64,000 bases of DNA, from the IMG/VR virus record IMGVR_UViG_3300020473_000017; one strand, written 5' to 3'. Shown in pieces: positions 1 through 59,625 of this stretch. The notes below the pieces were generated by a model. The model made no database searches and was not told the DNA's origin. It was given only the letters and a program-made list of their open reading frames with translations. Positions within the stretch are counted from its first letter, which is position 1. Every line of letters starts with the position of its first letter. The DNA is from a virus. The translations under genes and the position numbers were made by a program.

Positions 1-98
1 CAAAATCTGTTGAGATAGTCATCCATTCCAATGCTGTTTCTATGAATCTTCTCCATCAATTCTGGAAGATTCGCAGCGTGATATCTTGCTAAGTTCAT
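1..98 (-). CDS. hsp20: Small heat shock protein Hsp20, 5' part (runs off window start)
   Basis: Not in ORF track. Manual translation from ATG at 98 gives MNLARYHAANLPELMEKIHRNSIGMDDYLNRF, the typical cyanophage sHsp N-terminus; SD AAGGAG at 107-112; usual position downstream of regA. Confidence 0.85.
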   Translation of the reverse strand, partial: MNLARYHAANLPELMEKIHRNSIGMDDYLNRF

Positions 99-106
99 GA
101 TAGCAT

Positions 107-154
107 CTCCTTAATAAGCGAGTGTTTGATTTTGTGGACCCTTTCGGCATCCAC
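107..154 (-). promoter_or_regulatory. Structured hsp20 5' UTR: GAAA-loop hairpin plus SD-sequestering ROSE-like hairpin
   Basis: Minus strand GTGGATGCC-GAAA-GGGTCCAC (154-134), then CTC-G-CTT-ATT-AAG-GAG (122-107) pairing the SD with a bulged G. Confidence 0.6.
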
Positions 155-160
155 TATTAT

Positions 161-538
161 TTACCACTTTTCCGCTACAATCTCAATAGTGTTATCTACA
201 CTTTTGGATTCGGTTACTACTGTGAAGCCTTGCTCCTGTACGGTTTCCATAACCATAACTTTTGCATAAGCTTGTATGACTTTTTCCAAAAATCTCTCAA
301 CAGGGAACGGTTCTTCCCATGTGTCCATCTCGGCAACCAAATGAAATGTTCCATCTTTATCTTTCTTGAAACCTACATCATTTGTGATACCAACTTCAAC
401 TTGCCATTGCTTGTGATCATGACCATCAGGATTTACAAGCAACACATTCTCTTGTACAGCATAACCTAATTGATTTAATGCTTTTATAAGAGAATCTTTT
501 TTAGTGATCTTGGTTTTGATTTTGCTGAAGTGAGACAT
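161..538 (-). CDS. DUF1257 / Ycf35-like protein
   Basis: MSHFSKIKTKI...L..LGY...DVGF...LVAE...ERFL..V.Q.YA signature; start moved to MSHFS (ATG at 538). Confidence 0.85.
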   Translation of the reverse strand: MSHFSKIKTKITKKDSLIKALNQLGYAVQENVLLVNPDGHDHKQWQVEVGITNDVGFKKDKDGTFHLVAEMDTWEEPFPVERFLEKVIQAYAKVMVMETVQEQGFTVVTESKSVDNTIEIVAEKW

Positions 539-701
539 CGTTAACTTTTTGAAAGTACTCTGGTTTTTCTTTTCTCCATTGTACCACACCAAGATCAGTT
601 TCGATCCTCTCTGTGATATCTAAACACGAACTGCCAACGACACCTTCTACAGTCTCCTCAACAGTACCATCTTGAAGTATGCGAAAGATTATCCTTTGCA
701 T
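501..701 (-). CDS. DUF2997 family protein
   Basis: IIFRILQDGTVEETVEGVVGSSCLDITERIE..LG.V...KPEYFQ signature; usual neighbour of DUF1257. Confidence 0.8.
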   Translation of the reverse strand: MQRIIFRILQDGTVEETVEGVVGSSCLDITERIETDLGVVQWRKEKPEYFQKVNDVSLQQNQNQDH

Positions 702-1123
702 CAGTCCTCTTTCTTCTTACCAATGTTATATTTAGATTCTAATGTCCAGTCACCTTTCTCCTTGTAAGCAAGAACTTTAATTTGACTTAATGGTGCTACG
801 TCAGCAATAGTTTCCTTTGAATTAATGGATACAAGACCCCAATCACTAAGCAATTGAACAATGCGATTTCTACGTTGAACATCATTCAAACTTAAATTTG
901 CTTTCTTACCATCGAGAGCAAACAATTCTTTAAAATGTACTATAAAGTATCTACCCTGCTTGTGCAGTATATGACATGACTGATATAGTTTCTTTTCTTT
1001 TCTAGAAGCTACACCAATACGTGTCAATGTTTCTCTTACCTTAAGGAAGTCATCTGGTTCTTTCAAACCAACTTCCACCATACTGTCAGCAGACCACTTA
1101 ACCTCTTCTGAGACCGAGTTCAT
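701..1123 (-). CDS. regA: Translational repressor RegA
   Basis: DDFLKVRETLTRIGVAS..KKLYQSCHILHKQGRYFIVHFKELF motif; follows gp62. Confidence 0.97.
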   Translation of the reverse strand: MNSVSEEVKWSADSMVEVGLKEPDDFLKVRETLTRIGVASRKEKKLYQSCHILHKQGRYFIVHFKELFALDGKKANLSLNDVQRRNRIVQLLSDWGLVSINSKETIADVAPLSQIKVLAYKEKGDWTLESKYNIGKKKED

Positions 1124-2726: not shown

Positions 2727-3667
2727 TTGAATTCACACTCCACCATAATTTCAGTGAGAGCTGCTAATAAATTTATCTCCTGATCTGCTACGAAAGCAGA
2801 CTGATACTGATACTTTGCAATAATCAATACCGCTTGAGGTATACTAGAAGGTTTAAGGGCATCGTAAAGACTATCGTATACTGTTCTTAGTATAGCATTA
2901 GGATCATTATCTAAATTAGAAACAATCCACTTACGTGCTACAGAAAACTCTTTCTTCTTTAACGCTGATACCAACTCTCCAAGTTTAACTTCGTTGAGGA
3001 CTGCCAAGATCCCCGTATCGATTGATCCCGTGGAGCTATACCGCTGTAGTTCGTTGAGCGTTCTTCTGAAATCTGGAAAATATTTCTGAACGACCTCAGC
3101 GACCACCGCATCATCAAACCGTACATTTTCTCTGGTAAGTATGTCACGGCATCGCTCAAAGAATTTAGCAGCGATCTGTTGTTTGTTCTTTCCTCTAACA
3201 TTACAATCAATTACTGTTGTTCTGGAGTGGAGTGGTTCAATGATTTTGTTCTTGAAATTGCAGGTAAAAATGAATCTGCAGTTTCTGGAGAACTCCTCAA
3301 TACTCGCTCTAAGAAGGAGTTGTACGTCGGGAGTGGTATTGTCTGCCTCGTCGATGATGATAACCTTGTGTCTCGAGCTACTTGTGAGAGATACGGTAGA
3401 CGCAAAGCTCTTGGCACTATTCCGAACTGTATCAAGAAACCTTCCCTCATCGCTTCCATTAATGACATAATAATCAACTCCTAGTTCTTTACATAATGAT
3501 TTAGCAACTGTGGTTTTTCCGATACCAGCAGTACCACATAGTAGGAGATTAGGTATCTCCCCATTGTTAACAAAAGATTGAAATGTATTCTTAATATCGG
3601 ATGATAGAATACAGTCCTCAATAGTTTGTGGGCGGTACTTCTCCACCCACAGAAAATCATCCTTCAT
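2723..3667 (-). CDS. gp44: Clamp loader large subunit gp44 (RFC-like AAA+)
   Basis: LWVEKYRPQ, Walker A GTAGIGKT, Walker B IIIDEAD, IEPLHSR. Confidence 0.97.
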   Translation of the reverse strand: MKDDFLWVEKYRPQTIEDCILSSDIKNTFQSFVNNGEIPNLLLCGTAGIGKTTVAKSLCKELGVDYYVINGSDEGRFLDTVRNSAKSFASTVSLTSSSRHKVIIIDEADNTTPDVQLLLRASIEEFSRNCRFIFTCNFKNKIIEPLHSRTTVIDCNVRGKNKQQIAAKFFERCRDILTRENVRFDDAVVAEVVQKYFPDFRRTLNELQRYSSTGSIDTGILAVLNEVKLGELVSALKKKEFSVARKWIVSNLDNDPNAILRTVYDSLYDALKPSSIPQAVLIIAKYQYQSAFVADQEINLLAALTEIMVECEFK

Positions 3668-4325
3668 ACTTAGAATCTGGCTCCAATGCGATAAGGTATT
3701 CTAAATCTCTATTCACATCTCTAAAGAGAGATGCATTCTGCTTACTAATTGTAACCTCATAATCACCAGGTAACAACTTCAGGTTCTCAACTTTAAAGTT
3801 GAATGTAAAATTACTATCAGTCTCTCCAACCTTTACAGCATAGGTATTTGAAGTATCATTCTTCTTGTCACGAACAACAAGTTTAACAACACCATTCTCT
3901 CCAACAACTGCTAAGTCTTCTATCTGATAAATCGCTGCTGCCTTAATTATATTAGAGATATCACTCCATGCTACTGTGAATGAAATATCACTGCTAGGAA
4001 GTTCCACCCTATTCTCTGGTGGTTGAACTATAGTAGATGGATCAGCAAAGAAATACCTTGATGTATTTCTCCTATCTTTAATAATGAGATAATTATCATT
4101 ATCAAAATTAAACTCAGGATCATCAAATAAAGTAAGTCCAGATAAGAACTCACTTAAATCATAGATAGCAAAATCCTTTGGAAATGCCTCTTCAACAACA
4201 GCACGAGATAAGATATTCTTCTGGATGGATAGAGTGGATAACTCAGTACCTTCCTTGAAGCAAATGGACTGATTAATATTAGAGAAGTTCTTGAGGATAT
4301 CAAGAGTACTCTTAGAAAGTTTCAT
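3657..4325 (-). CDS. gp45: Sliding clamp gp45
   Basis: MKLSKSTLDILKNFSNINQSI, FAIYDLSEFL, FKVENLKLLPGDY, YLIALE; start set at ATG 4325. Confidence 0.95.
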   Translation of the reverse strand: MKLSKSTLDILKNFSNINQSICFKEGTELSTLSIQKNILSRAVVEEAFPKDFAIYDLSEFLSGLTLFDDPEFNFDNDNYLIIKDRRNTSRYFFADPSTIVQPPENRVELPSSDISFTVAWSDISNIIKAAAIYQIEDLAVVGENGVVKLVVRDKKNDTSNTYAVKVGETDSNFTFNFKVENLKLLPGDYEVTISKQNASLFRDVNRDLEYLIALEPDSKYEG

Positions 4326-45780: not shown

Positions 45781-48700
45781 TTAAACAATCGTCCAGGATC
45801 CACCGTTATCTATAGTAACTGTGCTACCGTTATTTATAGTCAATGGCCCCGCGCTCATGCAGCAATCTCCATTAGCAACAGTGATGCTTTCTCCAACAGA
45901 ATTTCTATTACGCTTGAATACCCCGTGAGAATCGATCCATTGCTTGTCGCCACCTGCTCTTAGAACTGTGCTCTTCTGTCCAGAAGATAGTCCTTCAGAT
46001 GCATTAAGGTTTAATCCACTATCTCCAGTAACTTGTACTCTATATGTTGACTGAATAGAGTTGCCACCTGGTTCGTGGAAATGACATCTACCACCCTGAT
46101 CCCATGATGCAAATGTTTGGTCACTATCATTTCTAAAGAAGAAGTCATCACCAGTCTTAATATAAGTATGACTATTATTAGCAAAGTAGAATCTTTGCTG
46201 ACCACCATCATCTGATATCCAAGTGTTAACTACACCCTGTAGATAAGGTAGGTTAAGTGCACTATAACCATCAAGTAAGTCTGCATTCAGGTTAGTACAT
46301 ACAGTAGTAGAACTAACACTAAGTGGTGCAGTACCAGTAGCAACAGTAGACTTAAGTTGATTGTCAGTTTCAATAGCACCACCAACATTCAATCTTGAAC
46401 CAGCTCCAGTACCAGCTGCCCTGTTAATAAACCATCTACCAGTAGCTTGATAGATCGCAAGGTTACAAGATCCAGTAGTAGCTTGAGCATTGATAGTTGC
46501 TGCAGCACCTGGATTTGCAAATCCTTTAAGAACAAAATATGATACGTTAGCATCATCTGCACCCATGACCCATGCATTATCATTATCTTTATCATCCCAT
46601 GTAATAGAAGGAGATCCACCACTCGTACCAAGTAATATACGACCATCATTAGCAGCACCAGATTCAAAGGTTGCCCATGCAGCAAGACCATCTTGATCCT
46701 TAGTGACATGTAAAGGTGATCCAGGATTAGATTGTCCAACACCTAAACGTGCATTACGGAAGTATACACCATTGTATGATAAGTGAGTTCCATTCCAACC
46801 AAAGTCATTAGTGTCAGTACCAAAGCGGATGTAACCAACAGTACCACTGTTTCTACCCTTGATGGATAGAGAGTTAGTTGCTGCCTTACCTAGGTCAACA
46901 CCATTAGCACCAGCAAGTTGTAAAACTCCAGTACCAGTGTTATTGAATGTACCTTGGTCACCAGTTAGATCGTTAACTGTAAGGTGTCCAGAAGCGTCTC
47001 TACGAGCGATTGTATTAGCATTTGCTGCAGTAGACTGAGTGAAACCATCTAAGTAATGAGCGTCTAGCTGTGAGGAACTACCATCGTTACCTGCGTGCCA
47101 CACGGTGTTACCGTTGACGGTGATATCACCAGTATTAATTCTTAAAGTACCATTTCCGTTATTGGTATTACCACCAGAAATGTAGAACTGAACATCGTAA
47201 TCAGGAGCTTGTCCCGAAGAACGGAAGTCAACTGTTGGAGTTGTAGAAACAGATCCCTTACCAATTTGTAGTTTAGCACCTGCAGCAGCATCACGTAATC
47301 CAATAACAGTAGTAGAACCGCTAGAGATTGGGTTGGATGATGTTACAGTCCACTTAGTACCTGGGTTAGGACCAACAACATATATGTTTGCGTTAGTATT
47401 ATTACCAACAAATGCGATTGTACCTGTTACTAATGAATAAATCTCACCAGATGTATGAGTAAGTTCACTAACACCATTAGCATCAACTACGATAGAACCA
47501 ATGTTGTTTGTTGCACCTACATCAGAGTAGATAGTGTAAGTACCACTTGGGTTAATGTTACCATTAGCACCAGTCCTACAATGGAAATCTGGAATGTATA
47601 ATGTGTACTTCAGACCACTATCATTAAGATAGAAGTTCTCGAAGACCATCTTGTCTTGACCAAGAACTTCAGGTAAGAACATATCACCCATAGGTGTATT
47701 GATTCCACCCTTAGAATTACCGAAGTTATAACCTGACTGATACCATAGACCTTGTGATCCATCTAGTTTATCAGCATCTAGGCCACTCGCAGCACCATCA
47801 TTAGCACCTGACCAAATCTTAGACCAGTTACCATATACAGTGTTACCTCCACTGTTACCTCTAATCCAAAGGTTATCATTATCAGTGTAACCGATTTGAA
47901 TAGCAGCAGAACCTGTTGCTTCCCTTCTGTAGGTCATGATACCGTGTGTGGTACCACCGTCAGTTAAACCAGTTGCACTATTATTTCTTAATGCAGCAGA
48001 AATACCGTTTGCTGCCTGTGCAGGTGATGGGTTAGAAGTTAGAGATGCAGTCTCGTTGAATACTCTGTTTGCTGTGTCAGCAGTACCAGAGATAGAAATA
48101 TTATATGTTGTATTTGCAAGACGTGCGGGATCAAGTGTACCAGCATTCAAACTACCAGCGTTCTGATAGAATGCACCGTGGTTACCATCCAGTTTATCAG
48201 CATTAAGTTCTGATCCTGGTCCTTGGTCAATAGTTACCTGACCATCATTATCAATTACGAAACCACCTTCTGATTGGTTACCAACTGCTTGGTTAGCAAC
48301 ATCCTTACGGAAACGGAATACACCGTAGTTACCATAGACAGTAGCGGCAGGAGTAAGGTTATCACCCTTCCTCATGTCAATTTCTATGTTACCATATACA
48401 CGGTTAATAGTACCCTTAACAGCAGTTAAGATTGCTCCATTACCACCACCAAATTCTGCAGGTATTGTTATACTAAATCCAGCAGTATATCCTGTACCAG
48501 AGTCAGTTACAGTAGCAGATGTAATAACACCACTTGTAACTGTATAAGTTGCTCTTGCAACACCACTATCAGTAACACTTACGTTACCACCTTCTAATGG
48601 TAAGTTCTGATAAGTACCGTCTGTGTATGAAGTACCACCGTTAGTTATAGTGATGGTGTCAATATATGTACTGTCTGTGACAGATCCATCAATAACAATA

Positions 48701-51700
48701 CAATCCTGAGTAGCAGGTCTAATTGCTTGTAATGCATACTCCCAAGAAGAATCACCACGTAAGAATGTGTAAGAGTTAGATACACCTCTACTTGCTAATC
48801 TCTCTGGGTCAATAGTACCAGCAACAATGTTAGAAGCATCAATGTTAGTTGATGTTAACTGTGTCCAGTTCGCTGCATTAGAAGCAGAAGTATTAATTAC
48901 CCTTGTAAGGTCAACAATTCTCTTTCTAGCAAAGTTACCAGAAGTACTTGCTGAAGCAGCAGAAGTTACTGTATACTGGTTAGCATTAATTAGAGAAATT
49001 GTATAGAAACCATCAGCACCCTGACCACTTGTAAAGTCTAAGAAAACAAGGGATGCGTTTGATAAGTTATGTCCAGTCTCATCAACTGTAATGGTAGTAC
49101 CAGATTGAGAATAAGTACCAGTTCCTTCATTAGCACCAGCACCATCAAGGATAAAGTCACCAGCATCAAACTTGATATTGTTTGCAATGTTGATGTTAAC
49201 TCTACCTTCAATTTGAGCAGCAAGAACTGCATTATTGTTAGTAGGTGAGTTAGGTGCAGTTACAGTTGGCTGTGAGTAGTATCCAGAACCAGGGTTGGTA
49301 ATAGTAACCTTAGTTACGATACCACTTGTTACGTTAGCAGTAGCAGTTGCCTGTGTGCCAGATCCACCAGGTGCAGAAATTGTTAGTGCAAAGTCACCAG
49401 TATAATCCGCACCACCATCAGTGATAACGAAGTTATAAATTTGACCATCATTAAAGGACTGAACAGTACCACGAGCAGTAGTAGAACTACCAGTTAGGAT
49501 AGCACCATTAGTGAATGAGTAATTACTATTCGGTGTGAATGCTAAGAACTGAGATTCTAAGTCATTCTCCAAGATATAGGAGATTGCAGTACCATCAGTT
49601 GTAAACGTATGAGTACCTGTACCCTGACCAGTAAGGTCAATAGCAGTACCATTTGTTGCGTTTGATGATGTAGAAGCAAGTTTAACAGTGTTGTCATCAA
49701 CCTTGATAACAAAGTACTTGGTAGCAGTTGAAAGTCCACCAATCGCTGTTGTTCCCTCAGTATATGTTAATCCATCACCAGTATTTGCACCATGAGCTGT
49801 GATGGTAATCTCTTCAGTACCTGTATTAACTGAAGCAGGAGCAACGCTGAAGTCTACAGCAGTTGTCTCAATAGCAATGTCACCAGCATTTGCGTCTTCA
49901 ATAGCAAGTCTTTCTACCTGAGATGTAACAGAAGTAATATTGAAAGGACGTAAAGCAGGTATCTGATCAATGTTAATCTTACCTGAAGACGTTAACTGAA
50001 CCAGTGCAGATGGAACTGCGTTTGTTGAATATGGCTGGTTGAGGTATGGTCCTAGGTTATTTGAAATATAATCTTTAACTGATGCCTGAGTAGGTAGTAA
50101 ACTATCAGATGCGAATGCACCACCTAAGTTGTCATCATCAGAGAAACCTGTAATCGTGATGTCACCACCAACGATCTTAATGGATGATAGTTCAGAGATA
50201 CTAACAGTACCAACGAAACTAATAGCACCAGTTCTGTTGAAGATAGTAACGAAATTACCAACCTTGAAGTCACCAAATTCGTTAGTACCAGATGTATAAA
50301 CCTGACCGAAGGCTTGTTCTGAAGCTTCGTATGCAGTACCTAAACCAAATCCACCGTTCTGAGGTAGAGCAGCATAGGTGTTACCAGATCCAGAATATTC
50401 CCAAGTATGTGATGAGGAGTTAACAACAGATGGTCTGTGGAATTGGATTGAGCGATTGACTAAGTTACTTAAGTTACCGTTAGCATAACTGTTCCTAGTG
50501 TTAGGAGCTGCTGTATCGGTATAATCCATCGACCTGTTGGTCGTGATCTTAGCAACTACCTGAGTTCCAGGAGCACCACTGACTACTTCTGTTTCAAGAA
50601 TGATATGCTCAACAGCAGGGTCAGTTGGATTACATCCACCAATTCTAATGATATAATCTTCTGTTGGAATATTGGTTAATGTTGTACCAGATACCTGAAT
50701 GACCTGTCTGCCAGATTCAACTTGGTTGTTATCAACATCATTAGTAATACTATCAATGACACCAATGTCAAAGCTGTATGGGTCTTCTCTAAATCCAGTT
50801 GCACGTAGAGAGTACGTACCAAAGTTAGATGCAGAGTTAGTAATAGATGCATATCCACCAGACTGACAAACAACACCATCTTGACAGAAGATAGCGAACA
50901 CAGAAACGACCTGTGTATATCCATCATTAGTGACGTTGTATGCAGTACCACCAAAAGATATAATGGTAAATGCGTTTGCAACCATCGACTTACCTTGTGG
51001 GTCGAACTGTGCAATACTATTACCTTGTGCGTCTAATTTAAGACCTGGACGAGGTACGTTTGGTGTAGCAACCTTAGCACCGTCAATATCACAACCAGAA
51101 CCTCCAAGGAATGATATAACAGAAGAGTTCTGAATGAATGGTGATGCTTCGACTACTGGTAAGTCTAAGAATAGATTGAGTAGTGGGAACTTGTACTTAG
51201 CAGCATCCTGTTCAGTAATAAGAGGATCTGGTTCTGTAATAGTACCACTGTATAAAGTACCACTGGATAAAACGTTATCTAAAATACCCCAGTTGGTAGT
51301 TAGTGCAGATACAACATTAGCACACTCAGGAGCACTTGAATCTATAGTAATAGAACTATTAGAAACAGGAGCAATATTTGAGAAGAAGCCTGGTTCTAAA
51401 TCATTTCTTATTGCTTTGATGCAAAGCTCTTTAGCATATGCAAAGATAGCACGAGTATAATCTACTTCTTGAGTAACATGTGCAATAGCACCACTAGAGA
51501 TATACTTGTTAGCAGATTCAACTATTGAAGAGTTACCAGTGTAACGAAGGTCATACTGAAGTGCTCTAACAATATGAAGAATATCATCTAAACATTGTTG
51601 ATCACCAGGTGAGAATGTTCTAGTTACAGCAGATAAATCACCGTATGAACCATCTGTACCAAGTGCAGTTGTAATTATACCAAAGAATGTATCAATTGCA

Positions 51701-54700
51701 GATACTACATCAGTACATGTTGGTGTTGTGGCACTAGTATCAGTAGCATGAGCTAAACTATCAGTAGCAATTGCTTGCTCAACAATAGAGAATAAAGTAT
51801 CAACAGTTGACTTAGGAGTTGTACATCCACCAGGATCAACTGTAATTGTTAGATCCTTAGATTGACCTACACCATGCCATCCTCTAATATTTACAGTCTC
51901 ATTAGCAATAACTTGTTGAGTAATATCACTTGCAATCTCCATGACTGCACGAGCATAGAACTCCTCACCATCTACGTGAGTGGTTCCAACAAAGTATCCT
52001 GCATGATCGTATACAGCATCGTTACCACCATTAACAAGGTTGTAAGCAACTGCTCTTAGAACATCAGATACATCATCCTTACAATCCTGATTATGATTAG
52101 GGATTGAGAATCTTGCAGCAGCAATTGGATCTGTTATACGAGGATAGGTGTAGTTTCCACCACCCTGAGCACAACTATAAATTATAGAATTAGTTGCAAT
52201 CTTAACTGTAGATCTAGCATGACTAATAGCATCAGCTGCAGCACCTTGATAAGTATGAGTTGTAGTGTTAGTAGAAGGAACTGTATCTAGTACTTGTACA
52301 TCAAATGTGTTCGTAGTAACATTAGAAATAATGACCCACTTGTTAGCAATTGGATCTGTCGAACGTGGATATGCAGTTGTTCCACCGCTACCATGAGTAC
52401 AACTAAAGCTTATTGCACCAACATCAAACTTAACTTTATCACCAACAGCAAATCCATGACCGTTGATAGTAACAGTCATAATACCTGTAGTAGGATCATA
52501 CGCACCACCAGATGCAGTATGTGTTGTAGGAGCTAGTAATTCATTAGATCCGATAGTTAATACTAGATCACCTGTAGCTGGGGTATATGTTGAAGATGAT
52601 GGAATATAATTGTTTATAGTAGAAGAAGTTGATCTCTTAACACCATTAGAAGTTGCACTTACAAATGAGTGTGCATAGTTACCACCAGTGATGACTGAAT
52701 TACCTAGTGCAGACTGATAAGCATGAGTTGTAGTGTTAGATGAGATACCAACATCAACAGTAATTGTAGTTCCTGTTGTTGCTACGATAGGAACTGAAGT
52801 ATTGTGTGACTTATCACGCTTCTGTGTGATTCCACCTGTTGTAGCAGATACAAATGCATGAGCATCTGTATTTGTTGATGGGATTGTAGATAAGACTTGA
52901 ATTTCAAATGTAGTTGAAGTTACATTAAAGATCTTCTGCCATTTTCCAGAAATAGGATCACCTGATCTTGGATATGACTTCTGTGCAGCAGGACCAGAAG
53001 CACCGCCAAATGCACAACTGAATGTAATAGAATTATCAGCAAGTTTAACCCAATCACCGTTTCTCATTCCATGAGAAGCAGTTGTCTCGACATGTACAAT
53101 ACCTGATGATGGGAAGTAGTGAGTACCACCCTTGGTTATAGCACCAGCAGATGTTCCACCCTGCCAAGTATGAATATAATCACCACCACTAGTAATAGCG
53201 TTAGTTGCAGTGAATCCAGGCTTCCATCTATGAGTAGAAGTATCTGAAGCAGTACCAACGTCTAGAGTAATTGTTGTTGCTGTTACAGCAGTAATGTTGA
53301 CCGCTGTATCGTATGCAGGGTCATCTGAGGTTGCTCCACCTTGTCCACTAGCACGAGGATATAAATGATCAGATCCATAGCTATCAGTATTACACTGGAA
53401 GCTAAGAGACTGATTAGCAATCTTAACACTGGTGTTTGCCTTAAGGCTATGAGCACCAATATCTAAAACCATAATACCTGTAGTAGGATCATATGTTGCA
53501 TCAGTTACTGTATGTTGTACTAAAGGAGATTGTCCAACATTTAAAGTAATTGTATCTGAACCTACTGCTTTAACAGGAATAGACTTTCCGTAATATGGGT
53601 CACTTGCTCTTGGATATGTCTTAGTTGAAGTGTTGCCATCCATTGTGCAATTGAAGGACAATGAATCAGGCTTAACGAATACGCTATCGCTAGTTGTTAA
53701 TCCATGACCATTACCAACTGTAAGAACCATATCACCACTGACTGCATTATAAGAAGCACCAGTGACATTGAAATTTGTACCACCAATTGCTGTATGTGAA
53801 TCAACTAATGCTCTTGGATATGCGTGCTCAGTTGATTGACTATCCTCATCACACTTAAATGTGATAGCACCAGTTGTAAGTTTAATATTTTCTTTAACGT
53901 GCTGAAGTCCATTACTAACAGCAGATACAAATGTATGAACATCATCAACTGTTAGTGCTACACCACCAGTACAATCAAACTTAAATGTATTTGTAGTAAC
54001 ACCCCAGATATTGATCCACTTACCAGCAATGGGTTGACCTGCTTTTGGATAAGACTCATTACCACCGCCACCATAAGGGCAACTCATGGTTATAGAACCA
54101 ACAGCAAGATTAATCTTATCTCCTTCTTGGAAACCGTGATCATTAATGGTCACAGTCATAATACCACTATGATTCTCAAGAGTTGCATCCGTTACTGTAT
54201 GAGAGGTAGGAGCCGCAAGGCTATGATTACCTACGGTAATCTCCATAAGACCCGTTGTAGGGGTATATACAGCGTTTGTGGGGGTGAACGTAACAGGTGG
54301 TGTAGTACCTACATTAATATCAAAAGTATCAGTAGTAATGTTAGAAACACTCTTCCAAACATTAAGTGCTGGATCAGTTGATCTAGGATATGTGTGCTTG
54401 GAGAAGTTGTCATCCATTGAGCAAGTAAAGGTCAATGAATCTTGAGCGACCTGTACTTTCTCACCAACTGTGAAACCATGACCAGGAATTGTAAGGGTTA
54501 GTACACCTGTAATTGGTTCGTATGCTGCATTAGTTACTGAATGCTGTGTGAAACCAACATCATTGTATACAACTGCTCTTGTTACAGAATTTGCTGCAGC
54601 ACTTACGAATGTATGTGGAGTAACGTCAGTTTTTGCCTTACCAACATTAACTTTAATATTATTAGCGTCTACCTTAATTACACCAAGATACTTGTTATAG

Positions 54701-57700
54701 AATGGATCTGTTGTACGAGGATACGTCTTATTAGAACCATCATTATCCATCTCACAAGTAAATGTGAGTGAATTAGGTGCAATTAAAATTCTGTCTCCAT
54801 CAACAAATGGGTGACTTGCAATGGTAAGAACCATTTCACCTGTTTGTGGATTATAATCAGCACCAGTTGGTTGGAATTGATATGTGCTTAAACCTTGGAA
54901 TGTATGTGTAGTAGTATTAGTTGGAGTAGTACCATTAAGTGCATTAATAGTAATATCATTTCCATTAACAGCAGTTACAGGAGTTTCAGTAAGACTTGAA
55001 ACAAAACGCTCTACTGCTTCTTCTGAAATGAACTTGTTATTAGTATTAATTAAATTAGCAGCATCCTGAGTTAGGTTAGGTACAGTACCATATGTTGCTC
55101 TATCAAGAGTAATAGTTTCATACTGTTGAGGATGAGTAGTATGTGGATGTCTTAGAATTGGTAGGTTACGAATTACCTTAGCAGCATATCCCTTAGCATT
55201 ATTGAATGCAGTTACATACTTACTCTGATTACTTGTAGTTACATCTTTAAGGAAGTAATTAGCAGCATCATATACTCTGTCATTACCACCCCACTTAAGG
55301 TTGTGATAAAGTGACTTCTTAAGGAAGTCGGAAATATCATCAGTACATGCTGTATTACCAGTAGGAACACTATATCCAGTATCAGCAACCATCTTCTCAA
55401 CAGATAGTTCTGCAATCATTTCAGCATTAGCAGCAAGTAAATCTGCAGCATCTGCTTGCTTATTATTCTCTGGGAAACTATTTGGAGTTCTATATGGTTT
55501 TCTTAAATCAGTGAAAGTACCATCAGTTCCTGTATATGTTGTACCTTCTGCTTCATTTTTACCAGAACTATTAACGCCAAGATCAAGAGTGAAAGTTCTA
55601 TGATCTACAATATCCTTAATAGGCCATGTGCTGTTAAGACTAAATCCATTCGCGAATGCAGCGACACCTTTAATTTCTACACCAGCAGAAGTACCAACAT
55701 TAACTGTAACTGTTCCAGCTGCATCTACTGCTGTAATTGCTAAAGTAGCACCGTATGCAGGGTCAGTTGATCTTGGATAAGTATGGGATGTAGCATGGTT
55801 GTCTCTAGAACATGTAAAGCTTAAAGAACCATTAGCAATGACTAATGTGTCAGAAGTAGTAAAGGTATGAGCACCTATTGATAATACTAGGTCTCCTGAT
55901 ACAGGGTCGTATGTTGCACCTGTTACATTCTTTTGAACACTACCAGCAGTTATTGTAATAGCATTACTTGCTGTACCACCATCATAAATGTGAGCATGAT
56001 TCTTATATCCTCTATAAAGGTTATGTCCTTGATTAACTTTAATAGTGGCAACATCATCACTTACAGCCCATGAAGTAATTGGATGGTCAAACTCCATCCC
56101 CAATGCACTAAATGTAGTAGGTCCAATTACAAGAGTACTATTTCTAGTAGAAGACTTCTCATAATGAGACTTAACATATCCGTATGCTTCTTGTGCAATA
56201 AATTCTTGGTTAGCTCTGATAGATTCAGCACCATCCCTAAAGCGAGCAGTCTGAGAGATCTTGACAAATCCATAAGGAGAGTTCCTTAGAGATGCAAGAA
56301 CATAGTTATTAGTAGAAATAACTGACTGGTTACCAGTTGGATTAAGTTGTGCATCAAATACACTAATAGCAGATCTTACAACAAATTGTAAGGCATAACC
56401 ATCAGCACGTTCAATACGATGCGTAATGTACTTACGTCCATTAAGATCTTCAACGTTATCTAAGACACTAACTGTAGATCCACTAGCAGTTGCAGTATTA
56501 GTTGTTGACTGAATATTTGCTGTCCTAAGTACAAAGGTAACAGTTAAGTTGGAACTATTGTATCTACCATAACCCATACCCAATTCAGTGTTACCAGGTA
56601 AGGATGGAGTACCAGATCCAAGATCAAACTGGTCAATAAGATATGTTTTACTTAATGCTTCAGATCCAGCTCCATCAAAGTTAAACTTAAGACCACATTC
56701 ACCAAGTGACTGCCAGTTAGAGAATAATGCAGTAGTTAAAGTATTATCTACGTTAGCAATAGTAACTGTGACTTCGCCACTTGATAAAGACCAAGATGGG
56801 TTAGTACCTGCACCCCAGTTAATAGCAGAACTTTGGAAACCATATAAGAAAACTTCCTGACCAACTTCATAGTCATGGTAAGAAGTACCTGCTAAAGTGA
56901 AAGTTGGACCATTATATGTCTGTTGTGTAGCTAATGTTGTGTCCAGAGTTGCGATTGATAATAATCTTGTCGCATCTTCAAATCTTTGATATCCTAAACC
57001 TGTACCTGTAAGATCTAAAGTTGTAGGAGCATCATTACCATTAGCATCCTTATTAAGAGCGTTAGCAGCAGTAGCAGCAAATCTTACCCAATCATTATTT
57101 TCTTTGTAGATATAATAAGTTGTACCATCTAGAAGACCACCAATCGCACCCATCTTACTAGCACGATATACAACACCATCTCCAGTTGCATACTGGTGAG
57201 TGAAGATTCTCATATTATTCGATTCTGGCATAATACTACCAGAAGTGAATAGATGGAGACTAGTATCTGGAGATACCGCAGTTATATCCTTTCTACCTGT
57301 AGTTGAAGTAAGTGTAGTAGCATTTAACCAAGTATCAAATAGTTCAATAGTATCAGCATCAACAAACCTTACATAATATACTGTACCATCAATAAGACCA
57401 CCAAGAGCATTAGTGTTCTCATCTTTCTGATAATAAACCTGATCACCACTCTTAAAGCTATGCCCAGTAATTGTTATTCTATCAGTGGTTAGATTAACCT
57501 TAGTAGAATCAGCTGCAAATGCAGTTGTTTCTCTTTCAGAATTAACTGTATGCTGATAAATCTGGTTAGAGATAGTCTCTAATTCAGGTCTTAATGATTC
57601 AGCATCAACAACGTCAAAGCGATCTGATACACTTGGGTTAGTGATATCAGTGATAATATTATTTGCTACAGCATCATAGAATATTTTCTCAGCGTCCTGG

Positions 57701-59046
57701 AATACGTCGTTAACACCTGACGTAATTAAAACCTTAACAGTACCACTTGCATTTGGTGTTCCAGCTGGTCCTGTGAAATTAACTTCTTGGATAGTACCTA
57801 ATGTACCTGAAGATCCACCTTGTACAAAGTAACCAACCTGTAGAGTTATGTCACTACCTGTATGGTTGTTAAATGTAATAAGGAAGATGTTATCACCACG
57901 GAACTTATCACCAGGAATAGCTGGGATTTGTGCAAGTTCTGGTTCGTAGTATAATCTCTGCTTATCGTCAAATACGAATGCATACTTCCAAGTATGAATT
58001 ACTGTACTTTGTGGGTCAGAAGAGTTCTGTAGTGCATCTCTGAATACACAACCAGCAACATATGTTTCGTTAGATGCTTTGATCATGTGACGATCAGCAT
58101 TTAACGGTCTTACAATTACACGACGTAGGTTGTCACCAATAAGTGAACAGTTCCTAGGAAGTGAAATTGGGTTATCTTCTAGGTACTCACCACCAGAAAC
58201 GATCAGTGATACGTACTCATCACTAGGATCTGGCTGTGCTTTCTGTAAACCGTAAGCAATTTGTGCTGCTTTCTTAATAGTTTTTACAGGTCTTGCAGCA
58301 GAACGACCATCATTTAGATCACTACCAATAGTTTGAGAGACATATACACGTCCACCAGTGTCATTTGTAGCAACTTTATAAACAAAATCTGTAGTTGCGA
58401 CACGTCTTGACTGATCAGTCAGAGGTGGAGTATCAGCAGTTGGATAAAATGTTGTACCAAAAGTATTACTTGTTACGTCTGTATCTTCGTAGTTGATTAA
58501 ATTAGGAGCACGAAGAGCCAGTGCAGGGTTGATAATGGTCTGGATGTCTAAGTTAACAACCTGAGCAGTATCAGAAATGATAGAACGAGTGGTTCTGATT
58601 TGACCCTCAACGTCAAGTTCGTACTGAGGATCGGTAGTATTAACACCAACGCGAATATTATTTTGAGGATTTAAGTTTAATGTTAATGCATCTTTCTCAT
58701 TAGCATCAACACCAACAGATAATTCTACAGATTCATCCCCTTGAATACTTAAAGAACGTACTCTTTTATATGATACTGTATTACCAGCAGTAATTACACC
58801 TAAGTTTGAACTCTGGAATGAAAGATTATCATCATCTACCTTTGATACTGTATAAGTTCCATCTGTTTCACCGCCAGATGTGAAATCTAAGTATAACTTT
58901 TCATCTCCAATGAAACCGTGAGCAACAGAAAGAATATTAACAACACCAGATACCGTCCTACTATAAGTGGAGTTTACCCAATTACCTGTAGGAGTAGCAC
59001 CAGATGCCTGTATTCTTTGCTGGTCGGCATTAATCTTAAGACTCAT
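45781..59046 (-). CDS. Giant (4421 aa) tail-fibre/virion structural protein
   Basis: Split pectin-lyase-like beta-helix, repeated YPR..DP beta domains, helical C.DD repeats, GxGY repeats, DAD.LDG fibre repeats, SAGP...WTIV C-terminus. Confidence 0.85.
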   Translation of the reverse strand: MSLKINADQQRIQASGATPTGNWVNSTYSRTVSGVVNILSVAHGFIGDEKLYLDFTSGGETDGTYTVSKVDDDNLSFQSSNLGVITAGNTVSYKRVRSLSIQGDESVELSVGVDANEKDALTLNLNPQNNIRVGVNTTDPQYELDVEGQIRTTRSIISDTAQVVNLDIQTIINPALALRAPNLINYEDTDVTSNTFGTTFYPTADTPPLTDQSRRVATTDFVYKVATNDTGGRVYVSQTIGSDLNDGRSAARPVKTIKKAAQIAYGLQKAQPDPSDEYVSLIVSGGEYLEDNPISLPRNCSLIGDNLRRVIVRPLNADRHMIKASNETYVAGCVFRDALQNSSDPQSTVIHTWKYAFVFDDKQRLYYEPELAQIPAIPGDKFRGDNIFLITFNNHTGSDITLQVGYFVQGGSSGTLGTIQEVNFTGPAGTPNASGTVKVLITSGVNDVFQDAEKIFYDAVANNIITDITNPSVSDRFDVVDAESLRPELETISNQIYQHTVNSERETTAFAADSTKVNLTTDRITITGHSFKSGDQVYYQKDENTNALGGLIDGTVYYVRFVDADTIELFDTWLNATTLTSTTGRKDITAVSPDTSLHLFTSGSIMPESNNMRIFTHQYATGDGVVYRASKMGAIGGLLDGTTYYIYKENNDWVRFAATAANALNKDANGNDAPTTLDLTGTGLGYQRFEDATRLLSIATLDTTLATQQTYNGPTFTLAGTSYHDYEVGQEVFLYGFQSSAINWGAGTNPSWSLSSGEVTVTIANVDNTLTTALFSNWQSLGECGLKFNFDGAGSEALSKTYLIDQFDLGSGTPSLPGNTELGMGYGRYNSSNLTVTFVLRTANIQSTTNTATASGSTVSVLDNVEDLNGRKYITHRIERADGYALQFVVRSAISVFDAQLNPTGNQSVISTNNYVLASLRNSPYGFVKISQTARFRDGAESIRANQEFIAQEAYGYVKSHYEKSSTRNSTLVIGPTTFSALGMEFDHPITSWAVSDDVATIKVNQGHNLYRGYKNHAHIYDGGTASNAITITAGSVQKNVTGATYDPVSGDLVLSIGAHTFTTSDTLVIANGSLSFTCSRDNHATSHTYPRSTDPAYGATLAITAVDAAGTVTVNVGTSAGVEIKGVAAFANGFSLNSTWPIKDIVDHRTFTLDLGVNSSGKNEAEGTTYTGTDGTFTDLRKPYRTPNSFPENNKQADAADLLAANAEMIAELSVEKMVADTGYSVPTGNTACTDDISDFLKKSLYHNLKWGGNDRVYDAANYFLKDVTTSNQSKYVTAFNNAKGYAAKVIRNLPILRHPHTTHPQQYETITLDRATYGTVPNLTQDAANLINTNNKFISEEAVERFVSSLTETPVTAVNGNDITINALNGTTPTNTTTHTFQGLSTYQFQPTGADYNPQTGEMVLTIASHPFVDGDRILIAPNSLTFTCEMDNDGSNKTYPRTTDPFYNKYLGVIKVDANNIKVNVGKAKTDVTPHTFVSAAANSVTRAVVYNDVGFTQHSVTNAAYEPITGVLTLTIPGHGFTVGEKVQVAQDSLTFTCSMDDNFSKHTYPRSTDPALNVWKSVSNITTDTFDINVGTTPPVTFTPTNAVYTPTTGLMEITVGNHSLAAPTSHTVTDATLENHSGIMTVTINDHGFQEGDKINLAVGSITMSCPYGGGGNESYPKAGQPIAGKWINIWGVTTNTFKFDCTGGVALTVDDVHTFVSAVSNGLQHVKENIKLTTGAITFKCDEDSQSTEHAYPRALVDSHTAIGGTNFNVTGASYNAVSGDMVLTVGNGHGLTTSDSVFVKPDSLSFNCTMDGNTSTKTYPRASDPYYGKSIPVKAVGSDTITLNVGQSPLVQHTVTDATYDPTTGIMVLDIGAHSLKANTSVKIANQSLSFQCNTDSYGSDHLYPRASGQGGATSDDPAYDTAVNITAVTATTITLDVGTASDTSTHRWKPGFTATNAITSGGDYIHTWQGGTSAGAITKGGTHYFPSSGIVHVETTASHGMRNGDWVKLADNSITFSCAFGGASGPAAQKSYPRSGDPISGKWQKIFNVTSTTFEIQVLSTIPSTNTDAHAFVSATTGGITQKRDKSHNTSVPIVATTGTTITVDVGISSNTTTHAYQSALGNSVITGGNYAHSFVSATSNGVKRSTSSTINNYIPSSSTYTPATGDLVLTIGSNELLAPTTHTASGGAYDPTTGIMTVTINGHGFAVGDKVKFDVGAISFSCTHGSGGTTAYPRSTDPIANKWVIISNVTTNTFDVQVLDTVPSTNTTTHTYQGAAADAISHARSTVKIATNSIIYSCAQGGGNYTYPRITDPIAAARFSIPNHNQDCKDDVSDVLRAVAYNLVNGGNDAVYDHAGYFVGTTHVDGEEFYARAVMEIASDITQQVIANETVNIRGWHGVGQSKDLTITVDPGGCTTPKSTVDTLFSIVEQAIATDSLAHATDTSATTPTCTDVVSAIDTFFGIITTALGTDGSYGDLSAVTRTFSPGDQQCLDDILHIVRALQYDLRYTGNSSIVESANKYISSGAIAHVTQEVDYTRAIFAYAKELCIKAIRNDLEPGFFSNIAPVSNSSITIDSSAPECANVVSALTTNWGILDNVLSSGTLYSGTITEPDPLITEQDAAKYKFPLLNLFLDLPVVEASPFIQNSSVISFLGGSGCDIDGAKVATPNVPRPGLKLDAQGNSIAQFDPQGKSMVANAFTIISFGGTAYNVTNDGYTQVVSVFAIFCQDGVVCQSGGYASITNSASNFGTYSLRATGFREDPYSFDIGVIDSITNDVDNNQVESGRQVIQVSGTTLTNIPTEDYIIRIGGCNPTDPAVEHIILETEVVSGAPGTQVVAKITTNRSMDYTDTAAPNTRNSYANGNLSNLVNRSIQFHRPSVVNSSSHTWEYSGSGNTYAALPQNGGFGLGTAYEASEQAFGQVYTSGTNEFGDFKVGNFVTIFNRTGAISFVGTVSISELSSIKIVGGDITITGFSDDDNLGGAFASDSLLPTQASVKDYISNNLGPYLNQPYSTNAVPSALVQLTSSGKINIDQIPALRPFNITSVTSQVERLAIEDANAGDIAIETTAVDFSVAPASVNTGTEEITITAHGANTGDGLTYTEGTTAIGGLSTATKYFVIKVDDNTVKLASTSSNATNGTAIDLTGQGTGTHTFTTDGTAISYILENDLESQFLAFTPNSNYSFTNGAILTGSSTTARGTVQSFNDGQIYNFVITDGGADYTGDFALTISAPGGSGTQATATANVTSGIVTKVTITNPGSGYYSQPTVTAPNSPTNNNAVLAAQIEGRVNINIANNIKFDAGDFILDGAGANEGTGTYSQSGTTITVDETGHNLSNASLVFLDFTSGQGADGFYTISLINANQYTVTSAASASTSGNFARKRIVDLTRVINTSASNAANWTQLTSTNIDASNIVAGTIDPERLASRGVSNSYTFLRGDSSWEYALQAIRPATQDCIVIDGSVTDSTYIDTITITNGGTSYTDGTYQNLPLEGGNVSVTDSGVARATYTVTSGVITSATVTDSGTGYTAGFSITIPAEFGGGNGAILTAVKGTINRVYGNIEIDMRKGDNLTPAATVYGNYGVFRFRKDVANQAVGNQSEGGFVIDNDGQVTIDQGPGSELNADKLDGNHGAFYQNAGSLNAGTLDPARLANTTYNISISGTADTANRVFNETASLTSNPSPAQAANGISAALRNNSATGLTDGGTTHGIMTYRREATGSAAIQIGYTDNDNLWIRGNSGGNTVYGNWSKIWSGANDGAASGLDADKLDGSQGLWYQSGYNFGNSKGGINTPMGDMFLPEVLGQDKMVFENFYLNDSGLKYTLYIPDFHCRTGANGNINPSGTYTIYSDVGATNNIGSIVVDANGVSELTHTSGEIYSLVTGTIAFVGNNTNANIYVVGPNPGTKWTVTSSNPISSGSTTVIGLRDAAAGAKLQIGKGSVSTTPTVDFRSSGQAPDYDVQFYISGGNTNNGNGTLRINTGDITVNGNTVWHAGNDGSSSQLDAHYLDGFTQSTAANANTIARRDASGHLTVNDLTGDQGTFNNTGTGVLQLAGANGVDLGKAATNSLSIKGRNSGTVGYIRFGTDTNDFGWNGTHLSYNGVYFRNARLGVGQSNPGSPLHVTKDQDGLAAWATFESGAANDGRILLGTSGGSPSITWDDKDNDNAWVMGADDANVSYFVLKGFANPGAAATINAQATTGSCNLAIYQATGRWFINRAAGTGAGSRLNVGGAIETDNQLKSTVATGTAPLSVSSTTVCTNLNADLLDGYSALNLPYLQGVVNTWISDDGGQQRFYFANNSHTYIKTGDDFFFRNDSDQTFASWDQGGRCHFHEPGGNSIQSTYRVQVTGDSGLNLNASEGLSSGQKSTVLRAGGDKQWIDSHGVFKRNRNSVGESITVANGDCCMSAGPLTINNGSTVTIDNGGSWTIV

Positions 59047-59617: not shown

Positions 59618-59625
59618 TATTTATA
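59618..59625 (-). promoter_or_regulatory. T4-type late promoter
   Basis: Exact TATAAATA overlapping the upstream TAA stop. Confidence 0.85.

What the first reader, a model, noticed from the sequence alone, without database searches (positions are those of the whole stretch)
52110..54990. Russian-doll protein: one ~100-aa domain recursively inserted into itself, five levels deep
Seen: the repeat A.Y.P.TG.M.LTI..H / SL.F.C..D....YPR..DP / TIT.NVG / HTFVSA...IT does not occur as simple tandem copies; its parts open and close like balanced brackets. Approximate spans: A 54553-52631 contains B 54297-52684; B contains C 54210-53896 and D 53803-52819; D contains E 53779-53131; E contains F 53523-53185. 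G (from 52614) contains H 52530-52216, and G's missing last strands appear at the start of the block (about 54990-54895), i.e. circularly permuted. The whole block itself splits a helical repeat (EEAVERF...FSIP...C.DD). Delayed closing strands appear consecutively (THRWK...AITSG-GDYIHTWQ...AITK; THAYQ...VITG-GNYAHSFVSA). Inference: a branched, dendritic antenna encoded in one chain, each branch held by two linkers, grown by repeated in-frame insertion at a few permissive loops; a distinct mode of adhesin evolution and a folding puzzle.
Basis: partly seen in the sequence, partly recalled or inferred. Interest (0 to 1): 0.82.

Follow-up and report, generated by a model that had tools for sequence, protein, structure and literature searches.

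The report
Nested beta-barrels in cyanophage tail fibre
A giant tail-fibre protein of a marine cyanophage carries about ten copies of one small beta-barrel domain spliced into each other's loops, five to six levels deep; this Russian-doll build was previously described only for the RNA polymerase of cyanobacteria.

Summary
Window 52108-54990 (- strand) is residues 1353-2313 of a 4421-aa tail-fibre protein. Its N-terminus and gene order match PHM2_096 of Prochlorococcus phage P-HM2.

**Sequence.** A profile built only from uninterrupted copies maps the region as 5 whole and 4 split copies of a ~100-aa domain. The fragments of each split copy complement each other exactly. Joined again, each gives one full-length match (E 1e-35 to 2.5e-22).

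**Structure.** In an AlphaFold2 model, single ~100-residue solved barrels superpose on ranges that start in an opening fragment and end in its distant closing fragment.

**Relatives.**
- 23 of 24 orthologues lack exactly E+F+E-closer, and 2 also lack C.
- A distant lineage has a clean four-level onion (pTM 0.70, four concentric ranges).

**Fold and distribution.**
- The fold is a small barrel like the E1 FCCH domain, the endosialidase barrel and FNR FAD-binding barrels.
- It has no Pfam or PDB sequence match.
- It was found only in marine cyanomyoviruses.

**Still open.**
- The 3D closure of the permuted domain G is untested.
- An adhesin function is untested.

Recursive same-domain nesting is already known from cyanobacterial RNA polymerase Si3, so this is a new variant, not a new principle.

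The parts
45781..59046 (-). Giant tail-fibre protein gene, 4421 aa. It is the orthologue of P-HM2 PHM2_096 'tail fiber protein'.
   Evidence: Searches give the open frame. PHROG 5342 'tail fiber protein', 3110 bits; the N-terminal 450 aa are 83% identical to PHM2_096, with the same gene order (gp7-like, 177-aa protein, fibre, 320-aa protein).
54991..55089 (-). N-side of the interrupted helical repeat unit (aa 1320-1352, ends ...EEAVERFVSSL).
   Evidence: the rejoined unit aligns to the uninterrupted unit at aa ~1194-1294 with score 154, against 31.9 +/- 5.3 for shuffles.
54877..54990 (-). G, last strands (profile 64-94; aa 1353-1390). This is the permuted piece that opens the block.
   Evidence: Conserved in all 24 orthologues. 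In the model its strands have pLDDT 57-75. 3D closure not tested.
54571..54873 (-). c1, an uninterrupted barrel (aa 1392-1492).
54280..54555 (-). A, opening part (aa 1498-1589, profile 2-87).
   Evidence: many rows with range 199..840-845, 72-85 residues aligned.
54211..54279 (-). B, first fragment (aa 1590-1612, profile 3-25).
   Evidence: ranges 285/286..821/822.
53896..54210 (-). C, an uninterrupted barrel inserted in B's first loop (aa 1613-1717).
   Evidence: E 1e-45. A gap of exactly one domain (105 aa, MAFFT boundaries 1616-1720) marks its absence in L012 and L014.
53806..53895 (-). B, second fragment (aa 1718-1747, profile 27-54, ends at YPR).
53782..53805 (-). D, N-terminal strand (aa 1748-1755, ..SHTA..).
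   Evidence: ranges 449..777/778. It is contiguous with D in the 23 orthologues that lack E(F).
53524..53781 (-). E, opening part (aa 1756-1841, profile 1-80).
   Evidence: ranges 456-458..674/675.
53185..53523 (-). F, the innermost uninterrupted barrel (aa 1842-1954).
   Evidence: profile 1-101, E 3.5e-39.
53131..53184 (-). E, closing hairpin (aa 1955-1972, GDYIHTWQ...).
   Evidence: In the model, residues 661-670 have pLDDT 82. It is lost together with E and F in 23 orthologues.
52819..53130 (-). D, main body (aa 1973-2076), in B's YPR loop.
   Evidence: profile 3-102, E 1.6e-43. Also.
52684..52818 (-). B, closing part (aa 2077-2121, profile 59-99).
52627..52683 (-). A, closing hairpin (aa 2122-2140, GNYAHSFVSA...).
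   Evidence: It is the only spare closer in orthologues that lack E(F), so it must belong to A.
52531..52614 (-). G, first fragment (aa 2145-2172, profile 4-23).
52216..52530 (-). H, an uninterrupted barrel inserted in G's first loop (aa 2173-2277).
   Evidence: E 4.4e-45; model range 873..979.
52108..52215 (-). G, second fragment (aa 2278-2313, profile 28-67). It runs straight into the helical host.
51937..52107 (-). C-side of the interrupted helical repeat unit (aa 2314-2370, SIPNHNQDCKDD...).
55627..55929 (-). c0, a lone uninterrupted copy upstream of the block (aa 1040-1140). It lacks the last conserved His.
   Evidence: E 2.4e-39. P-HM2 has a three-domain nest at the same site.

Best explanation
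**What it is.** Residues 1353-2313 of a 4421-aa cyanomyovirus tail-fibre protein form a branched cluster of nine copies of one ~100-residue beta-barrel domain, with a tenth lone copy upstream. The cluster is built by domain-in-domain insertion.

**How it is built.**
- A whole copy, or an already nested group, sits in one of four or five surface loops of another copy.
- The loops are: after the short N-terminal strand; after the 'TI..H' strand; after YPR; and before and after the 'TITVNVG' strand.
- The nesting tree is: helical repeat > G (joined to the host through its own YPR loop, so permuted in sequence) > {c1, A > B > {C, D > E > F}} and H.
- Each host barrel is completed only when its last hairpin ('H-x-F-V-S-A') is made, up to 530 residues after its first strands. 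Folding must therefore run from the inside out (inferred).

**How it evolves.** Whole modules are gained, lost and moved as cassettes between related phages. This is shown by comparison.

**What it probably does.** Inferred, about 55%: it gives a rigid, doubly tethered, multivalent display of variable barrel surfaces on the fibre shaft, for weak binding to the host surface. Otherwise (about 35%) it is a purely structural bulge or spacer.
For: **Sequence.** The fragments complement each other and rejoin to full-length matches. The parse has no crossings.

**Comparison with relatives.**
- 23 of 24 orthologous blocks lack exactly E-open+F+E-close (218 aa). That leaves one spare closer, which must belong to A.
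- L012 and L014 also lack exactly C.
- Break points cluster at profile positions ~25, ~54-55, ~72-74 and ~80-88 across 52 architectures.
- The E(F) pair is 54.6% identical over 205 aa to an equally nested pair at a different site in L016, L017, L020 and L047. Those proteins match the block as a whole at only ~28-34%.
- The P-HM2 orthologue is 83% identical at its N-terminus. It has no such block, and it has a three-domain nest where this protein has the single copy c0.

**Structure models.**
- AlphaFold2 model of aa 1300-2400: barrels at pLDDT 70-85.
- In that model, single ~100-residue solved barrels align 66-91 residues at rmsd ~3 A over ranges 199..841 (A), 285..822 (B), 449..778 (D) and 457..675 (E). 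They align equally over the whole copies at 88..192 and 873..979.
- A distant four-level onion gives pLDDT 80.6 and pTM 0.70, with four concentric ranges: 247..354, 173..383, 85..402 and 1..421.

**Function (weak support).**
- The gene sits in the baseplate and fibre module.
- Copy number varies between close relatives.
Against: - The 3D evidence comes from predictions with shallow alignments (25 and 9 sequences). Mean pLDDT of the block model is only 66.8 and pTM 0.41.
Contacts are inferred from the first and last aligned residues of structural alignments with middling Z (5-8).
- G's closure across ~760 residues was not tested in 3D.
- The models are monomers, while phage fibres are usually trimers, so strand exchange between chains is not excluded.
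- No test bears on binding. The conserved residues (H21, C40, Y51-P52-R53, H89) look structural rather than ligand-specific.
Confidence: 0.78

Rival explanations
1. Linear tandem array. The 'fragments' are simply truncated or decayed repeats and linkers between independently folding beads. The bracket pattern is a coincidence of repeat decay.
For: Repeat arrays in phage fibres often hold partial copies. Several short fragments score weakly on their own (E 0.0036 to 0.31 for three of them).
Against: - The fragments complement each other to the residue, and each rejoined copy gives one full-length match.
- Only 0.25% of random orders parse as well.
- Indels among relatives remove an opener, its insert and its closer together.
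- The models put the split pieces into single barrels.
- The onion has four openers followed by four consecutive closers, conserved in 9 distinct sequences.
Confidence: 0.04
2. Inter-chain swap. In a trimeric fibre the delayed closing hairpins complete barrels of neighbouring chains, or of a crossing partner in the same chain. The assembly would be interdigitated rather than strictly nested.
For: Phage fibres are commonly trimers (general knowledge). In RNA polymerase Si3, some recursively inserted domains exchange secondary-structure elements (PMC11515920). Only monomer models were made here.
Against: - The monomer models satisfy every opener with its own nested closer at reasonable confidence. 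The onion has pTM 0.70.
- In relatives without E(F), only one spare closer exists for A.
- Short two-residue linkers flank most inserts, which fits in-chain return.
Confidence: 0.1
3. The nesting is real but has no binding role. The cluster is a structural bulge, spacer or stabiliser of the fibre shaft, or near-neutral expansion of a domain that tolerates insertion.
For: - The conserved positions are core-like (G12, H21, C40, Y51, P52, H89).
- The P-HM2 orthologue does without the block.
- There is no recognisable ligand-binding motif.
Against: Module content turns over fast between phages with nearly identical fibre N-termini, and cassettes are exchanged between genes. This is the pattern usual for host-interaction regions. 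The family is kept across hundreds of cyanomyoviruses (329 records).
Confidence: 0.35

Closest known systems
Si3 insertion of cyanobacterial RNA polymerase beta' (recursively inserted SBHM/HABAS domains)
   Same: - One small beta domain is inserted into copies of itself.
- About half of the domains are discontinuous in sequence.
- Several levels are present: eight SBHMs, four of them built from distant segments (PMC10895346), described as a six-level recursive architecture (PMC13114784).
- The whole array sits in a loop of a helical host element.
   Different: - The host is a cellular enzyme, not a virion protein.
- The domain is HABAS, CATH 2.40.50.100 (PMC11515920). The best structural matches here are E1 FCCH, endosialidase and FNR-type barrels, and no RNA polymerase chain was among the listed matches. 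That leaves the fold comparison inconclusive rather than excluded.
- Module content here varies between close relatives, and pre-nested cassettes move between sites.
- One domain here is circularly permuted around its host.
Prochlorococcus phage P-HM2 tail fiber protein PHM2_096 (YP_004323465) and 'gp7' PHM2_086
   Same: PHM2_096 is the orthologue: 83% identity over the first 450 aa and the same gene order. Both P-HM2 proteins carry the same barrel family in nested form.
   Different: - PHM2_096 is 744 aa shorter.
- It lacks the second helical unit with the nine-copy block.
- It has a three-domain nest (aa 1022-1335) where this protein has the single copy c0.
- The records annotate neither the domain nor the nesting.
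Inserted beta-barrel domain of phage endosialidases (phi92, PDB 4hiz) and the FCCH domain of ubiquitin E1 (PDB 4p22; Pfam PF16190)
   Same: - The nearest named ESM-Atlas cluster is a viral E1_FCCH cluster, score 0.92.
- Both are themselves domains inserted into a larger host domain (general knowledge).
   Different: - There is no sequence-level relation. Pfam gives no hit at E<=0.1, and a profile against PDB sequences gives nothing significant.
- Those domains are single insertions, not recursive ones.

Membership tests
Recursive homotypic domain insertion (architecture class exemplified by RNA polymerase Si3) | Domains are discontinuous in sequence, and their segments are separated by complete copies of the same domain. 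| tested here: met
   Profile mapping and rejoining. Structural ranges 199..841, 285..822, 449..778 and 457..675.
Recursive homotypic domain insertion (architecture class exemplified by RNA polymerase Si3) | More than two levels of nesting. | tested here: met
   A>B>D>E>F. Four concentric ranges in the onion model.
RNA polymerase Si3 / SBHM (HABAS) domain family | The domain has the sandwich-barrel hybrid fold (CATH 2.40.50.100). | tested here: inconclusive
   The top 50 structural matches are FCCH, endosialidase, FNR-FAD, EF-Tu-like and uL3 barrels. No RNA polymerase chain is listed, and an unlisted family is not excluded.
RNA polymerase Si3 / SBHM (HABAS) domain family | Located in the trigger loop of the RNA polymerase beta' subunit. 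| tested here: not met
   The host is a phage tail-fibre protein in the baseplate and fibre gene module.
Pfam PF16190 E1_FCCH | Sequence match to the family profile above the curated cut-off. | tested here: not met
   A Pfam scan of the whole protein at E<=0.1 returned only a sub-threshold phycobilisome hit. The similarity is at fold level only.
Cyanomyovirus tail fibre protein PHROG 5342 (P-HM2 PHM2_096 orthologue group) | Full-length profile match, orthologous N-terminus and conserved gene order. | tested here: met
   PHROG 5342 at 3110 bits. 83% identity over aa 1-450 and a matching neighbourhood.
T4 gp7 baseplate wedge protein | Homology to gp7 and the gp7 position next to gp8. | tested here: not met
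   The gp7-like gene is the upstream ORF 59621-63880 (PHROG 32294; PHM2_094). The DNA hits under 'gp7' reflect the shared barrel repeat in another gene, PHM2_086.
Circularly permuted domain (G) | The N- and C-terminal halves are swapped in sequence but form one fold in 3D. | tested here: inconclusive
   Complementary profile ranges 64-94 / 4-23 / 28-67 are conserved in 24 orthologues. In the model these pieces are strands at pLDDT 55-75. No 3D contact test was possible (closed; the structural aligner is presumed to match in sequence order).

The most novel reading that the evidence does not exclude
Marine cyanomyoviruses may have a dedicated, evolvable 'fractal' display scaffold. The parts of this reading are:
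- A virus-specific barrel whose nearly invariant His-Cys-His triad acts as a metal clasp. The clasp is closed by the last hairpin, so nested barrels lock from the inside out as the chain emerges.
- Pre-nested cassettes are shuffled between the tail-fibre and baseplate (gp7-annotated) genes to retarget host binding.

This would be a new mechanism of receptor-binding diversification. It would also be the first natural system in which recursive domain insertion can be watched happening between close relatives.
Probability: 0.2. Interest if true: 0.82.

Novelty: new variant of a known kind. Interest (0 to 1): 0.64.

Why it matters
- **A rare architecture, second case.** Deep recursive insertion of a domain into itself has so far been described for one cellular protein, cyanobacterial RNA polymerase Si3. 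Here it appears in a different, unannotated barrel family and in a virion protein.
- **Living variation.** Near-identical fibres differ by whole nested modules, and a pre-nested pair is found at different sites. That makes the origin of nested architectures and the inside-out folding of discontinuous domains testable by comparison. It can also be tested in a cultured relative (P-HM2 on Prochlorococcus MED4).
- **Annotation.** This gives a domain definition and a parsing rule for about a thousand residues of 'hypothetical' sequence in giant structural proteins of abundant ocean viruses. It also warns that repeat finders and domain callers will mis-segment them.
- **Ecology, if it binds.** If the cluster binds the host surface, it is a candidate host-range determinant in globally abundant phages.

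Tried and rejected
- **Complex prediction.** Complex prediction was to test whether G's first piece docks onto G's last pieces, using alignments A2 and A3.
- **Foldseek.** Foldseek against the PDB gave only long, low-TM nonsense alignments with both multi-domain models.
- **Sequence-level family searches.** All of these found no family:
  - Pfam on the whole protein.
  - phmmer of the block against PDB sequences.
  - A domain profile against PDB sequences (best E 0.0064, an iota-carbonic anhydrase repeat, judged chance).
- **Family-wide bracket parser.** The automatic parser run on 146 representative proteins was unreliable. There were many fragments, missed short closers and a more distant repeat family, and it gave inflated depths of up to 21. 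It barely beat shuffled orders, so I do not use it.
- **Own genome.** The genome search 'own' failed because no genome is held for this window.
- **Model coordinates.** These are not exposed. Contacts, the geometry of the His/Cys/His triad and the position of the insertion loops on the barrel could not be examined.
- **Literature.** Searches for a description of this nesting in cyanophage proteins found none. The library is incomplete.
- **The 'gp7' label.** I considered and rejected the idea that the gene is gp7.


Full report
**Where it lies.** The finding sits inside one open reading frame, 45781..59046 on the minus strand, 4421 aa. The block 52110-54990 is residues 1353-2313.
- The window is a T4-like marine cyanomyovirus.
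- The first 450 residues of the protein are 83% identical to the 'tail fiber protein' PHM2_096 of Prochlorococcus phage P-HM2, and to its counterparts in P-HM1 and MED4-213.
- The neighbours match too: a gp7-like gene, a 177-aa structural protein, the fibre, then a 320-aa protein.
- The DNA hits under 'gp7' come from a second P-HM2 gene, PHM2_086, which carries the same repeat.

**Checking the observation.** I built a profile from six uninterrupted copies only and mapped it back on the protein.
- Whole copies lie at 1394-1490 (c1), 1617-1716 (C), 1846-1953 (F), 1973-2076 and 2177-2277 (H). One more (c0) lies upstream at 1040-1140.
- All other matches are partial, and they complement each other:
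  - A = profile 2-87 at 1504-1589, plus 88-101 at 2125-2138.
  - B = 3-25, 27-54 and 59-99 at 1590-1612, 1719-1746 and 2081-2118.
  - E = 1-80 at 1760-1840, plus a closer at 1958-1973.
  - G = 4-23 and 28-67 at the end of the block, and 64-94 at its very start.
- The block has nine YPR/YPK motifs. Reading the translation by eye, it also has nine 'H-x-aromatic' closers; the closer sub-profile recovers them.
- Joined again in a script, A, B, E and G each give a single full-length match, with E values of 1e-35, 2.6e-26, 8e-31 and 2.5e-22.
- A simple bracket parser reads the protein without a crossing. Only 0.25% of random orders of the same 14 segments do as well.
- The block interrupts a helical repeat unit. 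The rejoined unit aligns to the neighbouring intact unit with score 154, against 31.9 +/- 5.3 for shuffles, with one gap residue at the junction.

**Relatives fix which closer belongs to which opener.** Scans of viral and metagenome contigs gave 61 loci.
- Of 24 distinct orthologous blocks, one (L032) has the same architecture as the window.
- The other 23 lack 218 residues, equal to E-open + F + E-close. Two of them (L012, L014) also lack 105 residues, equal to C, so B's first two fragments become contiguous.
- In the 23 blocks without E(F), A is the only barrel still missing its last hairpin and there is exactly one spare hairpin. So A closes with 2122-2140, and in the window E closes with 1955-1972.
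- Across 52 distinct architectures the breaks cluster at profile positions ~25, ~54-55, ~72-74 and ~80-88. This means a handful of permissive loops.
- A distant lineage (L024, L025, L029, L058-L060) has a textbook onion, conserved in nine distinct sequences. It has three openers, then a whole copy, then three consecutive 'HTFVSA' closers; the third host barrel's closer also carries back its 'TINVG' strand.

**Three-dimensional test.** Rejoined sequences cannot be folded with these tools, so I folded natural contiguous stretches.
- The model of aa 1300-2400 used 25 orthologues. Mean pLDDT is 66.8 and pTM 0.41. The barrels are at 70-85 and the truncated helical flanks are below 35.
However, an all-against-representatives structural alignment reports the first and last aligned model residue.
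- Single solved barrels of ~100 residues align 66-91 residues at rmsd ~3 A over these model ranges:
  - 199..840-845, which is A-open start to A-close end.
  - 285/286..821/822, which is B.
  - 449..777/778, which is D including its short N-terminal strand.
  - 456-458..674/675, which is E.
  - The whole copies at 88..192 and 873..979.
- The same kinds of PDB domains hit split and whole copies, so the split copies have the same fold class in the model.
- The onion model (9 sequences) has pLDDT 80.6 and pTM 0.70. It shows four concentric ranges: 247..354, 173..383, 85..402 and 1..421.
- Caveats:
  - These are predictions from shallow alignments.
  - A range gives only its end points.
  - Only monomers were modelled.
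- G's closure could not be tested. The aligner is presumed to match in sequence order, and the complex predictor was closed. Its pieces are modelled as strands at pLDDT 55-75, which is weak support.

**What the domain is.**
- Pfam has no match. PDB sequences give none either, with the block or with a 29-sequence profile.
- The best structural matches are:
  - Then FNR-type FAD-binding barrels, riboflavin-synthase, EF-Tu-like and uL3 barrels.
- The nearest named ESM-Atlas cluster is a viral 'E1_FCCH' cluster at 0.92.
- I read this as a small closed barrel of the reductase/elongation-factor common-domain type. That classification is my own knowledge and was not tested.
- The family is narrow. 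It has 755 clusters at E<=0.001 among 1.84 billion representative proteins. By tblastn it has 329 of 50,697 phage records, all of them Synechococcus or Prochlorococcus phages or marine single-cell viral contigs.
- BFVD holds predicted chunks of such proteins, for example A0A0E3EYG1_2 with TMq 0.62. I found no paper that describes the nesting.

**How it evolves.**
- Paralogous copies are 24-46% identical, so the duplications are old.
- The E(F) pair is 54.6% identical over 205 residues to an equally nested pair in L016, L017, L020 and L047. There it sits directly in a helical repeat, at another place in proteins that match the block as a whole at only ~28-34%.
- So a pre-nested pair behaves as a cassette. 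In the window's lineage it landed between D's N-terminal strand and the rest of D.
- The P-HM2 orthologue lacks the whole second helical unit with its block. It carries a three-domain nest where the window has the single copy c0.
- G's permuted order (last strands, then c1 and A, then first strands) is what duplication followed by loss of the outer halves would give. That is inference.

**How it most likely works.**
- Shown: the architecture, the loops used and the modular turnover.
- Inferred: because a barrel's two ends must meet for it to sit in a loop, every branch is tethered twice. The cluster is compact (onion pTM 0.70), and each host barrel can only close after everything inside it has been made. 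A waits 532 residues for its last hairpin.
- Function: I favour, at about 55%, a rigid multivalent display of variable barrel surfaces on the fibre shaft for weak host-surface binding. The grounds are the gene's place in the adsorption apparatus, the rapid module turnover and the endosialidase-barrel likeness.
- The alternative, at about 35%, is a purely structural bulge or spacer. No test here bears on binding.

**Comparison with the known.**
- Recursive insertion of one domain into itself is established for Si3 of cyanobacterial RNA polymerase:
  - It has eight SBHMs, four of them built from distant segments (PMC10895346).
  - It has 'recursively inserted' HABAS domains (PMC11515920).
  - It is described as a six-level architecture (PMC13114784).
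- The present case shares the principle. It differs in fold family (as far as tested), in host protein, in having a permuted member, and in showing module gain, loss and transfer among close relatives.
- I therefore rate it a new variant of a known kind, with interest 0.64.
Another (e1-5725371) proposed a metal site, and I checked only its conservation: H21, C40 and H89 are all present in 136 of 141 distinct whole copies.

Noticed in passing
window 52108-54990 and loci L001-L061 (profile positions 21, 40, 89): His21, Cys40 and His89 of the barrel are all present in 136 of 141 distinct uninterrupted copies. G12, Y51 and P52 are also near-invariant. In split barrels the last His arrives with the delayed closing hairpin. 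G lacks the first His (Asn instead) and c0 lacks the last. This could be a structural metal site, but the geometry could not be checked.
   Followed up: partly
window 55627-55929 (c0, aa 1040-1140); L063 14001-25034 (PHM2_096 aa 1022-1335): The lone copy c0 sits where the P-HM2 orthologue has a three-domain nest (profile ranges 1-83, 2-54, 2-101, 57-101, 86-101). c0 itself seems to be embedded in a different small domain; flanking motifs such as 'VATIKVNQGHNL' and 'WPIKDIVDHRTFTLDLG' suggest this.
   Followed up: partly
window 53131-53805 versus L016 aa 3927-4128 (also L017, L020, L047): The nested pair E(F) is 54.6% identical over 205 aa to an equally nested pair placed directly in a helical repeat of much more distant proteins. 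This suggests that a pre-nested cassette was transferred.
   Followed up: partly
protein P0006 (2997 aa), around 'GGDYPHQF...GGDYAHQF': Five consecutive closing hairpins in a row (H-x-F/Y motifs, mostly preceded by 'GGDY') suggest a five-level onion in another family member. The openers upstream are divergent and were not parsed.
   Followed up: no
window 52627-52683, 53131-53184; onion loci L024/L025/L029: Closing hairpins that follow an insert start with a recurrent return linker: 'GG(D/N)Y-x-H' in the window's lineage and 'H(L/E)PQ-x-x-H' in the onion lineage. Uninterrupted copies have 'PSTNT-x-x-H' or similar there instead. This is useful as a marker for parsing.
   Followed up: no
window aa 1234, 2322, 2444, 2485, 2575 of the ORF (about 51320-55347): The helical shaft that hosts the block is itself a repeat with a conserved Cys ('C-x-D-D-(I/V)-S-D..L....NL..GGND.VYD'). 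At least five units are present and only one is interrupted here.
   Followed up: no
L062 (P-HM2 PHM2_086 'gp7', aa ~2490-3680): A second giant P-HM2 protein, annotated gp7, carries its own nested cluster of the same barrel. So the family populates two different baseplate or fibre genes of one phage.
   Followed up: partly
L030 (VTLG01000015.1, 86 kb metagenome contig): This contig is 99.6-100% identical to the window over the block and is probably its source or a near-clone. L032, from the same study, is the only other contig with the E(F) module (90.8% identity over it).
   Followed up: no
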